A stretch of 64,000 nucleotides of DNA from Patescibacteria group bacterium (GCA_041737355.1 JBGSRW010000006.1:83734-147733), one strand, 5' to 3'. Counted from the stretch's first letter, positions 31,226-54,534 are shown. Notes: generated by a model from the sequence alone, not told the origin. Program-made: numbers and translations.

Positions 31226-33209
31226 ATCAAAGCAAACACCCGAACTACTTCAAGAACAACAGGCAACGAATGCTGCGCCTGCGGTTGCCGACCTAAAAAA
31301 TAAAAAGCTAAAAAAATGGCACAAAACAGTGATTGCCATTTTTTTGTTGATTTTTATACCGGCTGGGGCGGTTTTTGCCTTCGAAGAAATTTTTTCCCGC
31401 AGAATTTATCCGGGGATTGAAGTCGGCGGAATCGACCTCGGAGGAAAAACAAAAGCCAAAGCCCTGGAGGAGCTCAACCGGGCTACCAAAGATTTTTTGG
31501 AGAAAGGACTTGTATTTACCTACCAAAATAAAACCGCGGCGGTCATGCCTATAGTTACCGCGGCAAACGACCCCGATCTTTCCCGGACCGCTTTTAGTTT
31601 GGAAAATGAGAAAACGGTTGAATCGGCTTTTTCCCTCGGACGCGGCGGAGATTTATTCGATAATTTGAAAAGCCAGTTTACGATTGCCTTCTGGGGAACG
31701 AAAATAAACCTCTTGTCCCAGTCCAACCCGGAAGAAATAAAAAAAATTCTTCAGGAAAATTTCGGAGATCTCGAGAAGCCGGCTCTCGATGCGAAGCTTG
31801 GCATCACGGCTAATAACGGCATCGTTGACGTCGAAGTTTATCCGGAAAAATCCGGCCAAGTCTTCAACTATGACAATGCCATTACCAATGCCTTTGCCAA
31901 AGTCGCCGATCTCCAGATGGAACCGACCGTCCTTGATCTTGTATTTGCCGAACCTAAAATAACTAAATCGGAAGCTTCCCTAGCCTTGGAACGGGCAAAA
32001 AAGATTACTCAGCTTTGTCCTGTTGTTGTAAGCGAAGGAAGAAAAACTTGGACGATTTCCCAAAACCAGATAAGGGAATGGCTTGAATTTCAGCAAACCT
32101 CGTCCGGAGTCGGGATCGGCTTGAACCAGGAAAAAATAGAAAGTTATCTGCAAAATTTCGCGAAAGAAATAAATGTCCCGCCGCAAAACGCCAAATTTAA
32201 AATTGAAAACGGCATCGTCAAGGAATTCCAGTTGCACCAGGGCGGAAAAGAACTCAATCTCGAGGCCAGCTACCAGGCAATAAATAATTATGTTTTAAAT
32301 TTTGATACGGCAAAAATTTCTTCAAAATGTCCCGCGAGTCCTCCGTCCGAAGAAGTTATCCAGCTTGTCGTAACAATTACCGCACCTCAAATTCCGATAG
32401 GCAGCCTGAATAATCTCGGTATTAAGGAATTGGTCGGAGTCGGAGAATCTGATTTTTCCGGAAGCCCGGTAAACCGCCGGCATAATATCAAAACCGGAGC
32501 GGCGAAACTGAACGGTACCCTTATTTCCCCCGGAGAAGAATTTTCCATTAATAAAGCTCTGGGCGAAGTTAACGGCGCGACCGGCTATTTGCAGGAGCTT
32601 GTCATTAAAGGCGACAAAACAATTCCCGAATACGGCGGCGGTCTTTGCCAAATCGGAACAACCATGTTCCGAGTCGCCCTTTACGCCGGGCTGCCAATAA
32701 CCGAACGCCGGCCCCATTCTTACCGGGTGGTTTATTATGAACCGGCCGGGATGGATGCGACAATTTACAGCCCCAAACCTGATTTAAAGTTTATTAACGA
32801 TACCCCTTCTTACCTGCTCCTCCAAACAAAAATCGACGGTAATATTCTGACTTTTGAACTTTGGGGGACATCCGACGGAAGAAAAATCGAAATAAGCAAA
32901 CCGAAAGTTTATAATTTCAGAAGCCCCGGTCCGACCAAAATTGTGGAAACCGAAGAACTGAAACCGGGAGAAAAAAAGTGCACTGAACGGGCTCATACAG
33001 GAGCCGACGCCGAATTTGACCGAACTATTACCAACGCGGCGGGCGAAGTTAAAACCGAAACCTGGACAAGCCATTATGTTCCTTGGAGCGCAGTTTGCCT
33101 GATTGGCAAAACCCCCGGCACGACTCCCTCGCCCGATTCCGGAACGCCTCCGGCCGATGGTGTACCCGCCGCTCCCTCCGATCCCGCGCTGCAAAATACT
33201 TCTTTTTAA
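31212..33209 (+). CDS. VanW-family protein with N-terminal TM and repeat/linker domains, Pro/Thr-rich C-terminus
   Basis: 665 aa. The VanW core is IPEYGGGLCQIGTTMFRVALYAGLPITERRPHSYRVVYYEP; one TM (VIAIFLLIFIPAGAVFAF); the C-terminus is GTTPSPDSGTPPADGVPAAPSDP. It overlaps the preceding ORF by 14 nt. Confidence 0.8.
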   Translation: MGKNKSKQTPELLQEQQATNAAPAVADLKNKKLKKWHKTVIAIFLLIFIPAGAVFAFEEIFSRRIYPGIEVGGIDLGGKTKAKALEELNRATKDFLEKGLVFTYQNKTAAVMPIVTAANDPDLSRTAFSLENEKTVESAFSLGRGGDLFDNLKSQFTIAFWGTKINLLSQSNPEEIKKILQENFGDLEKPALDAKLGITANNGIVDVEVYPEKSGQVFNYDNAITNAFAKVADLQMEPTVLDLVFAEPKITKSEASLALERAKKITQLCPVVVSEGRKTWTISQNQIREWLEFQQTSSGVGIGLNQEKIESYLQNFAKEINVPPQNAKFKIENGIVKEFQLHQGGKELNLEASYQAINNYVLNFDTAKISSKCPASPPSEEVIQLVVTITAPQIPIGSLNNLGIKELVGVGESDFSGSPVNRRHNIKTGAAKLNGTLISPGEEFSINKALGEVNGATGYLQELVIKGDKTIPEYGGGLCQIGTTMFRVALYAGLPITERRPHSYRVVYYEPAGMDATIYSPKPDLKFINDTPSYLLLQTKIDGNILTFELWGTSDGRKIEISKPKVYNFRSPGPTKIVETEELKPGEKKCTERAHTGADAEFDRTITNAAGEVKTETWTSHYVPWSAVCLIGKTPGTTPSPDSGTPPADGVPAAPSDPALQNTSF

Positions 33210-33211
33210 AT

Positions 33212-33336
33212 AAAAAAACTGCCAGGAATCTGCAGACAAGAGAGTTAGTTCCGCGACTTTGCCGAGCCAAGGCCAGGCAGGCGCAGAATTAACCCCCGTG
33301 CTTGTCGTGTCTGCAGGTTTCTGGCAGTTTTTTTTA
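33212..33336. terminator. Large (~22-bp arm) inverted repeat flanked by A-run and U-run: bidirectional terminator
   Basis: CTGCCAGGAATCTGCAGACAAG (33219-40) pairs with CTTGTCGTGTCTGCAGGTTTCTGGCAG (33301-27); A7 upstream, T9 downstream. Confidence 0.55.
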
Positions 33337-33509
33337 CTAACAGGTTATCATATCATACGGGATAAATTTGTCAAGAGAACAAAAACCCCTTTTAAAATTT
33401 ACCGAATAGACACAAGACTAAGGGAACTCAAAAGTCTCTTTTTTTATCCTGATCTGTTTTGGTTAAAAATAAAACCCCGTACATTTTGGCACGAGGTTCT
33501 TCTCCACTT

Positions 33510-41724: not shown

Positions 41725-42084
41725 ACTTAAAAGGGCGCAACTGCGCCCTTATATAATATAATTAATAAATGGCCGTTGCGCCCTTATGACCCCGCGACAC
41801 ACCCTTTTGTCCTCCGGAGAGGATTAAAGAGATACCGGTCTTGGGGTAAGGAACGCTTCTTGCTGACTTCTAAAGCGAAGCTCCTCTACCGTTCTTATGG
41901 TGAGTCCAAAGGTGAACCCACCGAAAAGTCATTTTTGTTTTTGTTTTTGGTTCAGGTCCTGCCAGCTAAAGACCTTGACGAAGAGTAGAGAAGAGAGAAA
42001 TTTTGCCGAAACTTCCACCGGTGTCCGTTTGCCTCCGTGCTTTTACCGGGGTTTTCACCAAAACGTCTCCGATTTCAATGTTCT
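41725..42084 (-). ncRNA. Candidate ~350-nt non-coding RNA or long structured leader of dksA (identity unresolved)
   Basis: No ORF of at least 60 aa on the minus strand. A near-consensus promoter is immediately upstream (next feature). A 3' hairpin AAGGGCGCA-gt-TGCGCCCTT (41731-52) plus UUUU lies about 100 nt before dksA, and a GCGCCCTTAT motif repeats twice. Confidence 0.3.
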
Positions 42085-42090
42085 ATAAAT

Positions 42091-42120
42091 ATTATACCAC
42101 GAAAAAGCGGTTCTTGTCAA
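42091..42120 (-). promoter_or_regulatory. Near-consensus sigma-70 promoter (TTGACA-18 nt-TATAAT) firing toward lower coordinates
   Basis: Minus strand: TTGACA (42120-42115) + AGAACCGCTTTTTCGTGG + TATAAT (42096-42091). Confidence 0.5.
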
Positions 42121-51367: not shown

Positions 51368-52183
51368 CTACGCTTCGATCGCTTTCTTGATCTTCCTCGC
51401 GAACTCGCGCCGAACCGCCGCCGGATCGGAACTCCGGGAGGCCAGCTTACCAACAGCGCTCCGCAAGGCGCGGACCATGGCTTCGAGATCGGTTTCGGAG
51501 AGATGCCGGATCTTGCCTTCGGAAGCTTCCAGCGCCCAGGAATTGACCTTGAGCGTTCCCTCGATCCAGCTTTGAAGCTCGGCGTTGTAGATTTCTCCGA
51601 CCGAAGGGAATTCCCCGGCGTACTTCACGAGCGTCTCGTGGTGCCGGGCGAAAACCGAGATGAATTTCTCGTTACCGTGCCCGACGAACTCGAATAGGGC
51701 GTAAAGCACGTAATCGAGCTTTTCCATCGCGTCGAAAAATTTCGCCTCGACGCTTTCCGCCGGCAGGCAGTAGACCCGCCGCAGGAAGGATGCAAGGAAA
51801 CCGAGCCGGTCCATCTGGATCAGGGTTTCCTCGTGCTCGATCTGCTCGTAGACCTCCTCGATCCGCGGATCATGCTTGAAGACGTAGCGGATGTCACCGA
51901 TCGCCCCTTCCGAGAACTCGTGAATCACTGCGTGCGTCATGACCAAGAGCTCGTCGATCTTGTTCTTGCCGGCCTTCCGCTCAAGCTCAAGACAATAGGC
52001 CGCAAGCAGGGCAATGGAAAGCGAATGGTGTGCCGAGGTCTGCCGCTGGTGGCGGTTCGGGTAGCCCTCCCACCTTCCGCAGCGCAGCAGACGGTCGAAG
52101 ACGTCGAAGACGCCGCCGACGAACTTGGCCATCTCAAGACGCCTCTCCAGGGCGGGGTCTTTGTTCTTGCCGCAATCATCCAT
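51368..52183 (-). CDS. HD-superfamily phosphohydrolase, YfbR-like (5'-deoxynucleotidase-like); GC-rich
   Basis: 271 aa: YPNRHQRQTSAHHSLSIALLAAY and VMTHAVIHEFSEGAIGDI align with the YfbR His...HD motifs, but the usual HD reads HE here; GC-rich codon usage. Confidence 0.55.
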   Translation of the reverse strand: MDDCGKNKDPALERRLEMAKFVGGVFDVFDRLLRCGRWEGYPNRHQRQTSAHHSLSIALLAAYCLELERKAGKNKIDELLVMTHAVIHEFSEGAIGDIRYVFKHDPRIEEVYEQIEHEETLIQMDRLGFLASFLRRVYCLPAESVEAKFFDAMEKLDYVLYALFEFVGHGNEKFISVFARHHETLVKYAGEFPSVGEIYNAELQSWIEGTLKVNSWALEASEGKIRHLSETDLEAMVRALRSAVGKLASRSSDPAAVRREFARKIKKAIEA

Positions 52184-52286
52184 CTTTCTCCTCCCTTTCC
52201 TGGTTTTGTTTTTCCCAATATCTCTTTCGGGTTTGGATAAGTTTAGGAAATAAAGAAACTAATGTCAAACAAAGTCATCCACACCT

Positions 52287-52315
52287 TTGACATGGCTAAA
52301 AATCTTTGGTATATT
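52287..52315 (+). promoter_or_regulatory. Near-consensus sigma-70 promoter TTGACA-17 nt-TATATT
   Basis: TTGACA at 52287-92, a 17-nt spacer, TATATT at 52310-15. Confidence 0.45.
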
Positions 52316-52347
52316 TAAAATACTTTAATCACTAATCCAATAAAAAT

Positions 52348-52464
52348 ATGGGACAAAATAGCGCGGCGAAAGCCAGAACAAAACACGCTCTCAAAAATAC
52401 CAAAAAGGGCAAACAATTGCGCAAACACACCAAGAGATTAAAGCCTTGTACCTGCTGTTCTTAA
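52348..52464 (+). CDS. Candidate 38-aa highly basic small protein (MGQNSAAKARTKHALKNTKKGKQLRKHTKRLKPCTCCS)
   Basis: A small ORF between the strong promoter (52287-315) and a strong terminator (52481-509); no SD; ends in CTCC; below the ORF-track length cutoff. Confidence 0.25.
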   Translation: MGQNSAAKARTKHALKNTKKGKQLRKHTKRLKPCTCCS

Positions 52465-52480
52465 TAAAAAATAGCTCAAG

Positions 52481-52509
52481 AAAAAAAGAGGCCGCTTGGC
52501 CTCTTTTTG
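52481..52509 (+). terminator. Rho-independent terminator
   Basis: A7-AGAGGCC-gctt-GGCCTCT-TTTTT. Confidence 0.65.
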
Positions 52510-52605
52510 TTTCTGCTCTACTCCCAGGCACTTGACGGACGGCCTGATTTTATTTAAACTTAATTTTCGTTCTGATAAAATATAGGTGAGGAAGGGAGGA
52601 CCGGA

Positions 52606-53364
52606 ATGAAGACAAAAATGACGTACCTGGCCATTTTTGCCGTGCTTTGCGGCTGCCGCAACGAATTCATTGACCTGACTCGGGAGGAATACGGGGTCGT
52701 TACCCAAATCATGATCCGTCCCGACTTCCCCGAGGGAGACGGCTCAATCGCCGTCCCCAAGGGGGACCAATCAAACACGGCGAATTACAAACTGAGGGCG
52801 TACGTCTACAACCACGACGGCATGCCCTTGTACCGGCCGATCGATTGGCGGGTTTCCGACCCGGCCCTGGTCGAACTCATGCCGGAAACCGACGACCCTC
52901 CGACCCACGAAGCCAGAGCCGCCATCCGGACTCTCCAAGACGTCTTCGACGCGGAAGGCGAAACCGAACCGGAAGCCACGATCACGGCCTGCGTCACGAA
53001 CGACTGCGAAGGATACGGCGGAGAAGTCGTCTGCGAACCGGAAATTTGCAGCGCGCCGATTACCGTGAAAGGCGTCGTGAATGCCGAAGGGGCTTGGGAA
53101 CTCTCGGGCGCGACTTTCCCCTTCACGGTGGCAATCTACACCAGCCAGACCGGACGGACGCTCGACGCAATCTCGAGCTATTACGAGCCGGAAATCCACG
53201 GCAACCAGATCAATTTCTCGGCTGGCAGCACAAGCTACGTCGGCCACTTCACCGACCGGACGCGCGTCACGGGCGAAGCGATTGTCTCCCCGAGCGGCGA
53301 CAATCTCGGAACCTGGACAGCGGTAAAGTGTCCGGACACCGGCTGCACCGGCGCCGGGCCATAG
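52606..53364 (+). CDS. Predicted lipoprotein, GC-rich
   Basis: 252 aa with the lipobox FAVLCGC at residues 12-18 and RBS GGAAGGGAGG; many Cys in the mature part (CVTNDCEGYGGEVVCEPEICS, CPDTGCTG). The overlapping ORFs 52771..53400(-) and 52845..53441(+) are judged spurious GC-driven frames. Confidence 0.55.
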   Translation: MKTKMTYLAIFAVLCGCRNEFIDLTREEYGVVTQIMIRPDFPEGDGSIAVPKGDQSNTANYKLRAYVYNHDGMPLYRPIDWRVSDPALVELMPETDDPPTHEARAAIRTLQDVFDAEGETEPEATITACVTNDCEGYGGEVVCEPEICSAPITVKGVVNAEGAWELSGATFPFTVAIYTSQTGRTLDAISSYYEPEIHGNQINFSAGSTSYVGHFTDRTRVTGEAIVSPSGDNLGTWTAVKCPDTGCTGAGP

Positions 53365-53479: not shown

Positions 53480-54343
53480 CTACAAAGGCTTCAAGCTGAC
53501 CACGGTGTTCTCACGCCGCGTCACGGCATCCTCCAGCCGTTTCTTGAAAGCCATCAACTCCCCGTTTTTCTCGAGAGCCGGATTTTTCTGGATGATCTGG
53601 CGAAACTCGTCGAGCATCGCCGCCAGTTCCTTATCTCGCCGCTCCATCAGGCGTACGAGCGACTGGTTGCTCGAACGTTCGGTCTGAAGCCTAGCCCTCA
53701 AATCTACTGGATCCAGGACGGGCGCCACGCCTTTCCGCAAAGGCGGCGGCGGAGCCGCGGCGGGACGCGGCGGAAATTTGGACAGCAGTTCTTTAGCTGC
53801 CAGTTCTTCCTGCGTCTCTCGCAGCGCCCGGCGCAGTTGGTTGGTAGTTGTATCAACCCGATCAATCTCCATCTTGGTACGCTTGAGCGCTTCCGAAGTC
53901 TGTTTGGCCACTCTGGCCTGAAGGCGCAAAAACCCTGTCAGGCTCCCTCGCCCCATGATGGAAATTAGCCCGTCTTCGTCGAGCCAGACAAGATTGGTCG
54001 GCTCAACGACTCTGGCGGCCTTTGTGTAGATGGGATGCTCTCTACGCAGAAGCAGCTCGTCTACGCCCAAGAGTTCCTGGGATATCGCCGTGGCAACCAC
54101 CTCGCCGGCAACGATAATTTCTACCTTGCCGAGAACGATATAGCAGCAACGATTGACTTCCTCGCCCTCCTGGAAAATCCAAGTCCCTGGCTGCTTTTCC
54201 ACGACAACGAGATGCTGATCGAGGAGCTTTATGAGATGCGGCCGGCCTTTGGTCAAATCTTCCAAAGTGTCGCGGCCGTCCTCGCTTCCCCCTCCGTTCT
54301 CCCCGGCACTTTCGCCGCAATCTTTGGTTTCCTCTCCCATCAC
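53480..54343 (-). CDS. Cyclic-nucleotide-binding (cNMP/CAP-like) domain protein with C-terminal coiled-coil and Pro-rich segment; GC-rich
   Basis: Trimmed to ATG at 54343 (MGEETKDCGES...) with RBS GAGGAGGG 6 nt upstream. The cNMP-binding beta-roll is WIFQEGEEVNRCCYIVLGKVEIIVAGEVVATAISQELLGVDELLL; then a long coiled-coil and PPRPAAAPPPPL. Confidence 0.6.
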   Translation of the reverse strand: MMGEETKDCGESAGENGGGSEDGRDTLEDLTKGRPHLIKLLDQHLVVVEKQPGTWIFQEGEEVNRCCYIVLGKVEIIVAGEVVATAISQELLGVDELLLRREHPIYTKAARVVEPTNLVWLDEDGLISIMGRGSLTGFLRLQARVAKQTSEALKRTKMEIDRVDTTTNQLRRALRETQEELAAKELLSKFPPRPAAAPPPPLRKGVAPVLDPVDLRARLQTERSSNQSLVRLMERRDKELAAMLDEFRQIIQKNPALEKNGELMAFKKRLEDAVTRRENTVVSLKPL

Positions 54344-54419
54344 CAACCCTCCTCGAAAAGACGATTTACTATTTTGTAGCAAAAAACCTTTTTTGTCAAG
54401 CGTCTTTATCTTACTACCG

Positions 54420-54448
54420 TTGACAAAAATAAAATTTTTTGTTATATT
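54420..54448 (+). promoter_or_regulatory. Sigma-70-like promoter upstream of uvrB
   Basis: TTGACA-17 nt-TATATT, about 85 nt before the uvrB ATG. Confidence 0.35.
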
Positions 54449-54534
54449 AACTCTACAATAAGTAACGGTCAAATCACCATTACTCTACATATCTGCCCCA
54501 CTCCCGCCTAAGCGGGACGGCTTTTGGGGGCTTT

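What the first reader, a model, noticed from the sequence alone, without database searches (positions are those of the whole stretch)
52287..52509. Self-contained ~190-nt transcription unit (consensus promoter to strong terminator) encoding a 38-aa highly basic peptide
TTGACA-17-TATATT and an A7-hairpin-U5 terminator bracket a small ORF, MGQNSAAKARTKHALKNTKKGKQLRKHTKRLKPCTCCS. It is 34 percent Lys/Arg/His, has a C-terminal CTCC, and is missed by the ORF track cutoff. It could be an unannotated ribosomal-protein-like or nucleic-acid-binding micro-protein, or the unit could be an sRNA. It lies inside the GC-rich block but is itself AT-rich.
Basis: seen in the sequence. Interest (0 to 1): 0.5.

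Follow-up and report, generated by a model that had tools for sequence, protein, structure and literature searches.

The report
Conserved tiny basic protein of Patescibacteria
The small unit is a real, strongly conserved gene for a 38-residue, highly positively charged protein of a previously unnamed family found only in Parcubacteria-type Patescibacteria; it probably binds RNA or DNA, perhaps as an extra ribosomal protein, but this is untested.

Summary
A near-consensus promoter (TTGACA-17-TGgTATATT) and an A7-hairpin-U5 terminator bracket ORF 52348-52464 in an AT-rich gap between GC-rich genes.

It is a protein gene, not an sRNA.
- About 70 related loci and about 173 protein clusters, all from Patescibacteria, encode the same 31-48 aa protein.
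- Variable alignment columns by codon position are 11/9/30. dN is 0-0.05, against about 0.09-0.10 for the neighbouring SPFH and uvrB genes.
- Nucleotide identity is 81-96% in the ORF and 24-61% in the flanks.
- Rfam gives nothing.

The conserved core is about 33 aa: M(Gx)NSAxKARxKHAKKNTKKGKxLxKxTKxLRK. AlphaFold2 predicts a helix-loop-helix hairpin (pLDDT 85). The Cys-rich tail (CTCCS here) occurs only in the clade that shares this window's gene order.

No Pfam, NCBIfam, PDB-sequence or fold match was found, and there is no relation to bS21 or bS22.

Gene context varies. In one clade the gene ends an rpsF-ssb-rpsR-efp cluster. Elsewhere it sits beside uvrB, recA, tyrS, trxB or a ZIP transporter.

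Best reading: a housekeeping polycationic nucleic-acid-binding protein, most likely a lineage-specific ribosomal or ribosome-associated protein. A nucleoid-binding role is the main rival. The function is inferred, not shown.

The parts
52287..52292 (+). -35 hexamer TTGACA
   Evidence: One of only four sites with 11 of 12 or more promoter matches in the 64-kb window. A TTGAC(A/G/T/C) -35 with 17-nt spacing recurs upstream of the gene in related loci.
52307..52315 (+). Extended -10 element TGgTATATT
   Evidence: An extended -10 TG is present in many relatives.
52322..52347 (+). Inferred 5' UTR of about 26 nt, A/T-rich, without a Shine-Dalgarno motif. The transcription start is inferred from the -10 position, not mapped.
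   Evidence: None of 56 family loci has an SD-like motif. The host genome is also largely SD-less, with 10 of 52 genes carrying one.
52348..52467 (+). Coding sequence for the 38-aa protein, plus tandem stop codons TAA TAA
   Evidence: Coding status is shown by the codon-position pattern 11/9/30 and dN/dS of about 0.05-0.2, and by dN of 0-0.05 against 0.09-0.10 for the neighbouring genes.
52348..52446 (+). Conserved family core, residues 1-33: a predicted helix (5-14), loop, helix (19-27) hairpin
   Evidence: Alignments A2-A6; invariant residues N4, A6, R10, K16, T18, T28. AlphaFold2 mean pLDDT 85, and 92-94 over residues 11-30.
52447..52461 (+). Clade-specific Cys-rich tail CTCCS, residues 34-38
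   Evidence: Present in variable forms (GCSCCS, GCTCCSC, CSCCCC, EYCCKCCK, GCCYCK and others) only in loci that share the SPFH/uvrB gene order. Absent from most of the family. Lower-confidence coil in the model.
52481..52512 (+). Intrinsic terminator: A7, GAGGCC-GCTT-GGCCTC, T5 g TTT. Its symmetry makes it potentially bidirectional.
   Evidence: dG -14.7 kcal/mol. A hairpin plus T-run follows the gene in 40 of 56 related loci.

Best explanation
The unit is a genuine stand-alone gene, with a strong sigma-70-type promoter and an intrinsic terminator. It encodes a 38-aa polycationic protein of a previously unnamed family restricted to Parcubacteria-type Patescibacteria.

The functional part is the core of about 33 residues. 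It folds into a small helix-loop-helix hairpin. A narrow Ala/Leu/Thr seam (A6, A9, A14 against L24, T28, L31) holds the two helices together, and every other face carries Lys or Arg.

The most likely role is binding a conserved structured nucleic acid. My preferred target is ribosomal RNA, which would make this a lineage-specific small ribosomal or ribosome-associated protein, comparable in kind to bS22, bL37 and bTHX. The ribosomes of these bacteria are known to lack several standard proteins.

The Cys-rich tail in this clade is an add-on. It may be a metal-binding or redox-sensitive site.

Shown: the transcription signals, coding status, family distribution, strength of purifying selection and gene contexts. 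Predicted: the hairpin fold. Inferred only: nucleic-acid binding, ribosome association and the role of the tail.
For: - Coding status: about 70 loci keep the ORF. Variable columns by codon position are 11/9/30, and there are 753 synonymous against 379 non-synonymous pairwise codon differences.
- Constraint: dN is 0-0.05, against 0.09-0.10 for the adjacent SPFH and uvrB genes in the same genome pairs. The ORF is 81-96% identical at the nucleotide level, the flanks 24-61%.
- Family: 9 GTDB species genomes, 59 metagenome loci and 151-173 protein clusters of 31-48 aa. All are labelled 'hypothetical', and every named source is Patescibacteria.
- Fold: AlphaFold2 predicts a helical hairpin with pLDDT 85.
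- Expression signals: the promoter is one of the four best in 64 kb, and there are tandem stop codons. Synonymous-site identity exceeds that of the neighbouring genes in several pairs, for example 28/31 against 367/665, p = 4e-5. That fits high expression.
- Translation link: in 8-9 loci of one clade the gene is the last co-directional member of rpsF-ssb-rpsR-efp-X. The spacers are 15-130 nt with no G+C-rich terminator hairpin evident, and a hairpin plus T-run follows X in most of these loci. In another clade rplU lies two genes downstream.
- Published background: CPR ribosomes lack uL1, bL9 and/or uL30, and bS21 is frequently absent from Parcubacteria (PMC9297842).
Against: - There is no sequence, profile or fold similarity to any known ribosomal protein or to any solved structure.
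- Profile scores against bS21 and bS22 are no better than composition-matched shuffles.
- Gene context is not consistently translational. It includes SPFH (11 loci), uvrB (10), recA (8), a response regulator plus tyrS (7), trxB (3) and a ZIP transporter (2). In small genomes dominated by housekeeping genes, the rpsF-cluster linkage in one clade could be chance.
- There is no transcript, proteomic or ribosome-composition evidence.
- I could not test whether the family's presence complements the absence of a standard ribosomal protein.
Confidence: 0.45

Rival explanations
1. A nucleoid-associated, protamine-like DNA-compacting protein. The polycationic hairpin coats DNA, and in this clade the Cys tail cross-links molecules through disulfides or metal, helping to pack the chromosome in ultra-small cells.
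For: - The protein is polycationic with no acidic residues.
- DNA-metabolism genes recur nearby: uvrB in 10 loci across several clades, recA convergent in 8, and ssb in the upstream cluster.
- Variants with a single C-terminal Cys sit directly upstream of thioredoxin reductase (L027, 16-nt gap; L036). This hints that the thiols are redox-relevant.
Against: - Non-specific DNA condensers are typically low-complexity and fast-evolving. Here specific polar residues (N4, T18, T28) are invariant, and dN is lower than in uvrB.
- ssb belongs to the standard rpsF-ssb-rpsR operon, and recA is on the opposite strand.
- Most family members have no Cys at all.
Confidence: 0.2
2. A small accessory subunit or regulator that binds another conserved protein machine, such as RNA polymerase, a repair complex or the SPFH membrane scaffold, rather than nucleic acid.
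For: Strong conservation implies a conserved partner. The gene is divergently arranged with SPFH in 11 loci and lies near uvrB.
Against: The SPFH and uvrB linkage is clade-limited, and context varies across the family. A net charge of about +12 on 33-38 residues, with almost no hydrophobic surface, is more typical of nucleic-acid binders.
Confidence: 0.12
3. The transcript acts as a small regulatory RNA, possibly dual-function, and the ORF is incidental.
For: The unit is compact, running from promoter to terminator in about 190 nt. The transcript folds better than shuffles (z = -3.1), partly because of the terminator. Synonymous-site identity is elevated in some pairs.
Against: There is no Rfam match, even at E up to 10. 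Substitutions are three-periodic and the protein is nearly invariant. The UTRs are poorly conserved (24-61%) against 81-96% for the ORF. The gene moves between contexts as an ORF with different flanks.
Confidence: 0.03
4. A RiPP precursor or an attenuation leader peptide. In the first case a conserved N-terminal leader is followed by a variable Cys/Ser/Thr-rich core that is modified after translation. In the second, a Lys- or Cys-codon-rich leader controls the downstream gene through the terminator.
For: Within the clade the tail is hypervariable and rich in Cys, Ser and Thr (CTCCS, GCSCCS, CSYCSDCSC). A terminator follows directly.
Against: No YcaO, lanthipeptide or radical-SAM enzyme is found in any neighbourhood. 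Most family members end at residue 33 with no Cys, so the 'leader' is itself the conserved product. Downstream genes differ or lie on the opposite strand, and no alternative antiterminator structure is apparent.
Confidence: 0.03
5. A secreted cationic antimicrobial or host-directed peptide of an episymbiont.
For: It is small and cationic, and Patescibacteria live attached to hosts (own knowledge).
Against: There is no signal peptide, no amphipathic hydrophobic face (the only non-polar residues are Ala and 3 Leu), and no linkage to a transporter or immunity gene. Conservation is far above that usual for such peptides.
Confidence: 0.02

Closest known systems
bS22 (33-aa small-subunit protein of mycobacteria, Cutibacterium, Borrelia and Bacteroidota; Pfam DUF1713/AURKAIP1-COX24)
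   Same: Same size class (33 aa), begins with MG, is extremely basic, is lineage-restricted, is often missed by annotation, and was discovered only through ribosome structures.
   Different: There is no sequence relationship. hhalign aligned 1 column, and the HMM score is worse than 76% of shuffles. Pfam gives no hit. bS22 is Arg-rich. X has a conserved NSAxKAR...KNTKxGK motif and a predicted hairpin.
bS21 (PF01165)
   Same: It is a basic helical small-subunit protein whose C-terminal half contains KRHAKK...RRTRL, resembling X's TKHAKK...KTRRL. bS21 is reported as frequently absent from Parcubacteria (PMC9297842).
   Different: The resemblance is not significant. hhalign aligned 5 columns (P = 0.22), and 11-34% of composition-matched shuffles score as well. 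X lacks the whole N-terminal half of bS21. Complementary distribution was not tested.
bL37 and bTHX (24-26-aa lineage-specific ribosomal proteins; own knowledge)
   Same: They are tiny, polycationic and restricted to particular phyla, and they fill rRNA crevices.
   Different: They were not compared directly. The Pfam and PDB-sequence searches, which include ribosome entries, returned nothing.
Zinc-binding (C+) and zinc-free (C-) forms of small ribosomal proteins (L31, L33, L36, S14, S18; own knowledge, and PMC6094098 listed)
   Same: The family occurs with and without a Cys cluster. Two Cys-less members lie directly downstream of a ZIP zinc transporter.
   Different: The tail has vicinal cysteines (CxCC, CCxCC), not paired CxxC knuckles. 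The forms are orthologues in different clades, not paralogues in one genome. Metal binding is untested.
Protamines and Hc1-type histone-like proteins (own knowledge)
   Same: They are short and polycationic. Mammalian protamines also carry cysteines used for cross-linking.
   Different: X has a defined, strongly conserved, non-repetitive sequence and a predicted fold.

Membership tests
bS22 (DUF1713 / AURKAIP1-COX24) | Sequence or profile similarity to the bS22/mS38 motif | tested here: not met
   The bS22 sequence was verified against PDB. hhalign of A5 against bS22 aligned 1 column. The HMM score was -1.7, and 1524 of 2000 shuffles scored as well or better. Pfam gave no hit at E up to 10.
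bS22 (DUF1713 / AURKAIP1-COX24) | Located in the 30S subunit in a ribosome structure | not testable with these tools
   My literature searches turned up no ribosome structure from any Patescibacteria.
bS21 (PF01165) | Profile similarity, including the N-terminal domain | tested here: not met
   The E. coli bS21 sequence was verified. hhalign aligned 5 columns, P = 0.22. The tail scored 0.7-2.3 bits, matched or beaten by 11-34% of shuffles. X is only 31-48 aa and has no equivalent of the N-terminal half.
Ribosomal protein (generic) | Stoichiometric presence in purified ribosomes | not testable with these tools
   This needs biochemistry, mass spectrometry or cryo-EM.
Ribosomal protein (generic) | Genomic linkage to ribosomal-protein or translation genes | tested here: inconclusive
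   An rpsF-ssb-rpsR-efp-X cluster occurs in 8-9 loci of one clade, and rplU lies nearby in another. Other clades have unrelated neighbours.
Ribosomal protein (generic) | Small, very basic, under very strong purifying selection, single copy | tested here: met
   pI 10.8-12. dN is below that of the neighbouring housekeeping genes. There is one copy in the window and one per locus.
Sigma-70 promoter with extended -10 plus intrinsic terminator (stand-alone transcription unit) | Two hexamers at 17-nt spacing with TGn; a GC stem followed by a U-tract | tested here: met
   A promoter with 9 of 12 or more matches is found in 28 of 56 relatives, and a terminator in 40 of 56.
Non-coding sRNA | Conservation pattern without codon periodicity, or membership of an RNA family | tested here: not met
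   Codon-position variability is 11/9/30. Rfam gives no hit. The UTRs are much less conserved than the ORF.
RiPP precursor | A co-located modifying enzyme, with the core peptide as the functional part | tested here: not met
   No modifying enzymes occur in any neighbourhood. The Cys tail is absent from most members.
Attenuation leader peptide | A conserved regulated gene downstream on the same strand, with alternative terminator and antiterminator folds | tested here: not met
   Downstream genes vary in identity and strand. The peptide sequence itself is conserved.
Protamine/Hc1-like nucleoid condensers | Binds and compacts DNA | not testable with these tools
   Only the composition is comparable. 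The conservation pattern argues against non-specific binding.

The most novel reading that the evidence does not exclude
X is a previously unrecognised ribosomal protein specific to Parcubacteria-type Patescibacteria. A 33-residue cationic helical hairpin would occupy an rRNA site left open in their reduced ribosomes. That site could be on the small-subunit platform near bS6 and bS18, with whose genes X is clustered in one clade, and in lineages reported to lack bS21. In the window's clade a vicinal-cysteine tail would add a metal- or redox-responsive element to the ribosome.
Probability: 0.3. Interest if true: 0.7.

Novelty: new member of a known kind. Interest (0 to 1): 0.5.

Why it matters
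Patescibacteria make up a large share of bacterial diversity. They have reduced ribosomes that lack several standard proteins, and none of the Parcubacteria-type lineages has a solved ribosome structure.

This family is a 31-48-aa protein more constrained than uvrB. It is present across Falkow-, Buchanan- and Magasanikbacteria and other Parcubacteria. It has no Pfam or NCBIfam model and is frequently not called as a gene. That makes it a concrete candidate for a missing housekeeping component, either ribosomal or nucleoid.

It gives a defined target for metaproteomics, peptide biochemistry and density assignment in future cryo-EM or cryo-ET maps. It also shows that ORF-length cut-offs hide conserved core genes in these genomes.

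Tried and rejected
- **Rfam:** the whole window at gathering threshold, and 52150-52650 at E up to 10, gave only sub-threshold noise.
- **Pfam and NCBIfam:** nothing for the peptide or for 12 family members at E up to 10.
- **Exhaustive phmmer against 1.84 billion representatives:** only one true relative was found, because such short ORFs are rarely called. The second hit, P0004, is an unrelated 553-aa tandem-repeat protein and was dismissed.
- **PDB sequence searches:** three successively broader profiles gave zero hits at E up to 10.
- **Resemblances recalled from memory:** bS22, yeast eL29, the bS20 N-terminus and the bS21 C-terminus were all tested by hhalign and rejected. The shuffle test also rejected bS21 and bS22. 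Only the bS21 and bS22 sequences were verified against PDB. The eL29 and bS20 sequences came from memory.
- **bS21 in the fetched DNA:** none was found in 476 kb. The weak top hits were X itself at E above 3, so this says nothing about complementarity.
- **Viral contigs:** no relatives.
- **Missing Shine-Dalgarno as a special feature:** rejected, because the host genome is largely SD-less.
- **Longer 'fusion' homologues of 57-86 aa:** these are upstream mis-called starts, or in L004 read-through into the terminator, not domain fusions.
- **N-myristoylation or prenylation-like reading (MGxxxS/A start, CCx end):** set aside. The MGx prefix and the Cys tail are each absent from large parts of the family.

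Full report
**1. Observation**

- The promoter is TTGACA (52287-52292), a 17-nt spacer, and TATATT (52310-52315) preceded by TG. This is an extended -10 element with 11 of 12 consensus matches.
- The ORF starts at ATG 52348 and encodes 38 residues, MGQNSAAKARTKHALKNTKKGKQLRKHTKRLKPCTCCS. It ends in two consecutive TAA codons (52462-52467).
- The terminator is A7 / GAGGCC-GCTT-GGCCTC / T5gTTT (52481-52512), with a hairpin dG of -14.7 kcal/mol.
- Only four sites in the whole 64-kb window reach 11 of 12 or better, so the promoter is not a chance match.
- The unit is AT-rich (GC 0.37) and lies between genes of GC 0.59-0.62.
- Lys+Arg+His is 37% rather than 34%. There are no acidic residues.

**2. 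It is a protein-coding gene**

Short ORFs are poorly represented in protein databases. An exhaustive phmmer run found only one relative. Word-indexed and DNA-level searches found many more:
- three proteins at first;
- 9 loci in GTDB species genomes, all but one titled Patescibacteria (Falkowbacteria, Buchananbacteria, Parcubacteria); the exception is an 886-kb chromosome deposited as 'uncultured Gammaproteobacteria', probably mislabelled;
- 59 metagenome loci;
- with profiles, 151-173 clusters of 31-48 aa, all unnamed or labelled 'hypothetical', with no Pfam domain.

No relatives were found in viral contigs.

Across 12 diverse loci the first 33 codons show variable columns of 11/9/30 by codon position. 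There are 753 synonymous against 379 non-synonymous pairwise codon differences. dN/dS is about 0.05-0.2, with dS often saturated.

Within the window's own clade the ORF is 81-96% identical at the DNA level, while 62 nt upstream and 55 nt downstream are only 24-61% identical.

In the same genome pairs dN of X is 0-0.05. For the adjacent SPFH and uvrB genes it is 0.09-0.10 (0.04-0.06 in the closest relative, L017). X is therefore more constrained than well-conserved housekeeping genes.

Rfam finds nothing. The sRNA reading is rejected.

**3. Anatomy of the family**

The consensus is M(Gx)NSA(A/L)(K/R)AR(T/I/L)K(H/Q)AKKNTK(K/I)GKxLxKxTKxLRK.
- In the 104-sequence alignment N4, A6, R10, K16, T18 and T28 are invariant. 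A9, A14, G21 and L24 are nearly so.
- Many members end at residue 33 (...RRLRK).
- AlphaFold2 with this alignment gives mean pLDDT 85 (92-94 for residues 11-30). It predicts helix 5-14, a short loop around KNT, and helix 19-27.
- By inspection the small and hydrophobic residues (A6, A9, A14; L24, T28, L31) form the only possible inter-helix seam. Everything else is Lys, Arg or polar. This part is inference.

C-terminal appendages are clade-specific:
- none;
- a K/R-rich extension;
- a conserved ...RRNNYWTKPK... tail (Magasanikbacteria and relatives);
- the Cys-rich tail seen here (PCTCCS, GCSCCS, GCTCCSC, GCSCCCC, EYCCKCCK, GCCYCK and others).

**4. Transcription unit**

A TTGACx-17-(TGn)NANNNT promoter with 9 of 12 or more matches lies upstream in 28 of 56 loci. 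Its end is typically 27-34 nt from the ATG. A hairpin plus T-run follows the stop codon in 40 of 56 loci.

None of the 56 loci has a Shine-Dalgarno-like motif. This is not special to the gene. In the window only 10 of 52 larger genes have one, and the clearest (GGGAGG) belong to the GC-rich, apparently acquired genes flanking X.

The mRNA folds somewhat better than shuffles (z = -3.1), largely because of the terminator.

In several close pairs synonymous-site identity in X exceeds that of the neighbouring genes: 25/30 against 454/779, and 28/31 against 367/665 (p = 0.004 and 4e-5). In other pairs it does not (L005, L001). This fits codon selection in a highly expressed gene, but it remains unexplained.

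**5. Gene context**

Context is not conserved across the family, but several arrangements recur.
- (a) The window's clade has hemerythrin, then SPFH/Band-7 divergent from X, then a 252-aa lipoprotein, a cNMP-binding protein and uvrB-uvrA (11 loci).
- (b) rpsF-ssb-rpsR-efp-X, all co-directional, followed by convergent recA (8-9 loci). The efp-X spacers are 15-130 nt with no G+C-rich terminator hairpin evident, and a hairpin plus T-run follows X in most of them. X is probably the last gene of that cluster.
- (c) X convergent with a response regulator and tyrS (7 loci).
- (d) X directly followed by uvrB (L023, L053).
- (e) X followed by DUF192 and rplU (the L002 group).
- (f) X followed by thioredoxin reductase (L027 with a 16-nt gap, L036, L061). 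The first two carry a single C-terminal Cys.
- (g) A ZIP zinc transporter directly upstream (L012 with a 16-nt gap, L055 with 75 nt).

The picture is 'housekeeping'. One clear translational linkage (b) is mixed with DNA-repair neighbours.

**6. Comparison with known families**

I tested four resemblances recalled from memory.
- bS22 (33 aa, MG start; sequence verified): hhalign aligned one column, and the HMM score is worse than most shuffles.
- bS21 (sequence verified): its C-terminal KRHAKK...RRTRL resembles X's TKHAKK...KTRRL. hhalign aligns only 5 columns (P = 0.22), and 11-34% of composition-matched shuffles score as well.
- Yeast eL29 and the bS20 N-terminus: nothing. These two sequences came from memory and were not verified.

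X is therefore not a member of any known family. It resembles lineage-specific mini ribosomal proteins in kind only.

Published work states that CPR bacteria often lack uL1, bL9 and/or uL30, and that bS21 is frequently absent from Parcubacteria (PMC9297842). No ribosome structure from these lineages turned up in the literature searches.

**7. Interpretation**

- Settled: this is a real gene of a new family, highly constrained and restricted to Patescibacteria.
- Predicted: a cationic helical hairpin.
- Inferred: it binds a conserved structured nucleic acid.

I favour rRNA, meaning a ribosomal or ribosome-associated protein, for four reasons:
- specific polar positions are invariant;
- constraint exceeds that on uvrB;
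- the size and charge match known mini ribosomal proteins;
- it terminates an rpsF-ssb-rpsR-efp cluster in one clade.

I put this at roughly 0.3-0.35. The broader statement, a nucleic-acid-binding housekeeping protein that is most probably ribosomal, I put at 0.45.

The main rival is a nucleoid or DNA-repair-associated DNA binder (0.2). Next is a small subunit of another protein machine (0.12).

The sRNA, RiPP-precursor, attenuator-leader and secreted-peptide readings are each at or below 0.03. They fail on codon pattern, absence of modifying enzymes, variable downstream genes, and lack of any hydrophobic face or signal peptide.

The role of the Cys tail is open. It could be metal-binding or redox-related. 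The trxB and ZIP adjacencies in other clades are weak hints only.

**8. Verdict**

This is an unannotated, clade-wide, strongly conserved small-protein family. It is a new member of the known kind 'lineage-specific polycationic mini-protein' and is worth a targeted experiment, but its function is not established here. Interest 0.5.

Noticed in passing
window 41733-42120 (- strand): A perfect 12 of 12 promoter (TTGACA-18-TGgTATAAT, 42120..42091) drives an ORF-less transcript of about 350 nt. It ends at a terminator (aagggcgcagttgcgccctttt, near 41740). MFE is -120 kcal/mol and z = -5.6 against shuffles. Rfam gives no match at gathering threshold or at E up to 1. It is probably an unclassified, highly expressed structured RNA.
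   Followed up: partly
window 33205-33374 (- strand): An 11 of 12 promoter (TTGACA-16-TGaTATGAT) is followed by a rod-like hairpin RNA of about 120 nt, flanked by A8 and U7 runs. z = -7.2 and Rfam gives no match. Its lower arm (about 33209 and below) overlaps the last few bases of the + strand 665-aa gene. The shape recalls a small SRP-type RNA, but it is unclassified.
   Followed up: partly
window 51368-52183 (-), 52606-53364 (+), 53480-54472 (-): The GC-rich block is really separate insertions around the native AT-rich gene. These are an HD/YfbR-like hydrolase between SPFH and X (shared only with L017), and a 252-aa lipoprotein plus a cNMP-binding protein between X and uvrB. In other clades X is followed directly by uvrB (L023, L053). 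The HD and lipoprotein genes carry strong GGGAGG Shine-Dalgarno sites. Most native genes in the window have none (10 of 52).
   Followed up: partly
window 54420-54448 (+): The uvrB promoter has the same hexamers and spacing as the X promoter (TTGACA-17-TGtTATATT).
   Followed up: no
L027, L036 (trxB downstream); L012, L055 (ZIP upstream): Family members ending in a single C-terminal Cys (KGHRLC, TGKPSC) sit directly upstream of thioredoxin reductase. Two Cys-less members sit 16 and 75 nt downstream of a ZIP zinc transporter. These are possible hints to thiol or metal chemistry, or they may be coincidence.
   Followed up: partly
P0081, P0086, P0096, P0121, P0125, P0127, P0129, P0132, P0135; loci L063-L066, L069, L071: A subfamily that includes Magasanikbacteria carries a conserved aromatic C-terminal extension...(K/R)FRRNNYWTKPK(S/G)..., in place of the Cys tail. 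This is a second conserved module of unknown role.
   Followed up: no
window 52348-52443 compared with L006, L016, L008: Synonymous-site identity in X (83-90%) is well above that of the neighbouring SPFH and uvrB genes (55-58%) in some genome pairs, but not in others (L005, L001). Codon selection, an mRNA-level constraint or lateral exchange could each explain it.
   Followed up: partly
L004 2151-2345: In one relative the stop codon is lost. The ORF reads through the terminator hairpin to give a 64-aa product with an extended CSYCSDCSC... tail. This may be a real extension or an assembly or mutational artefact.
   Followed up: no
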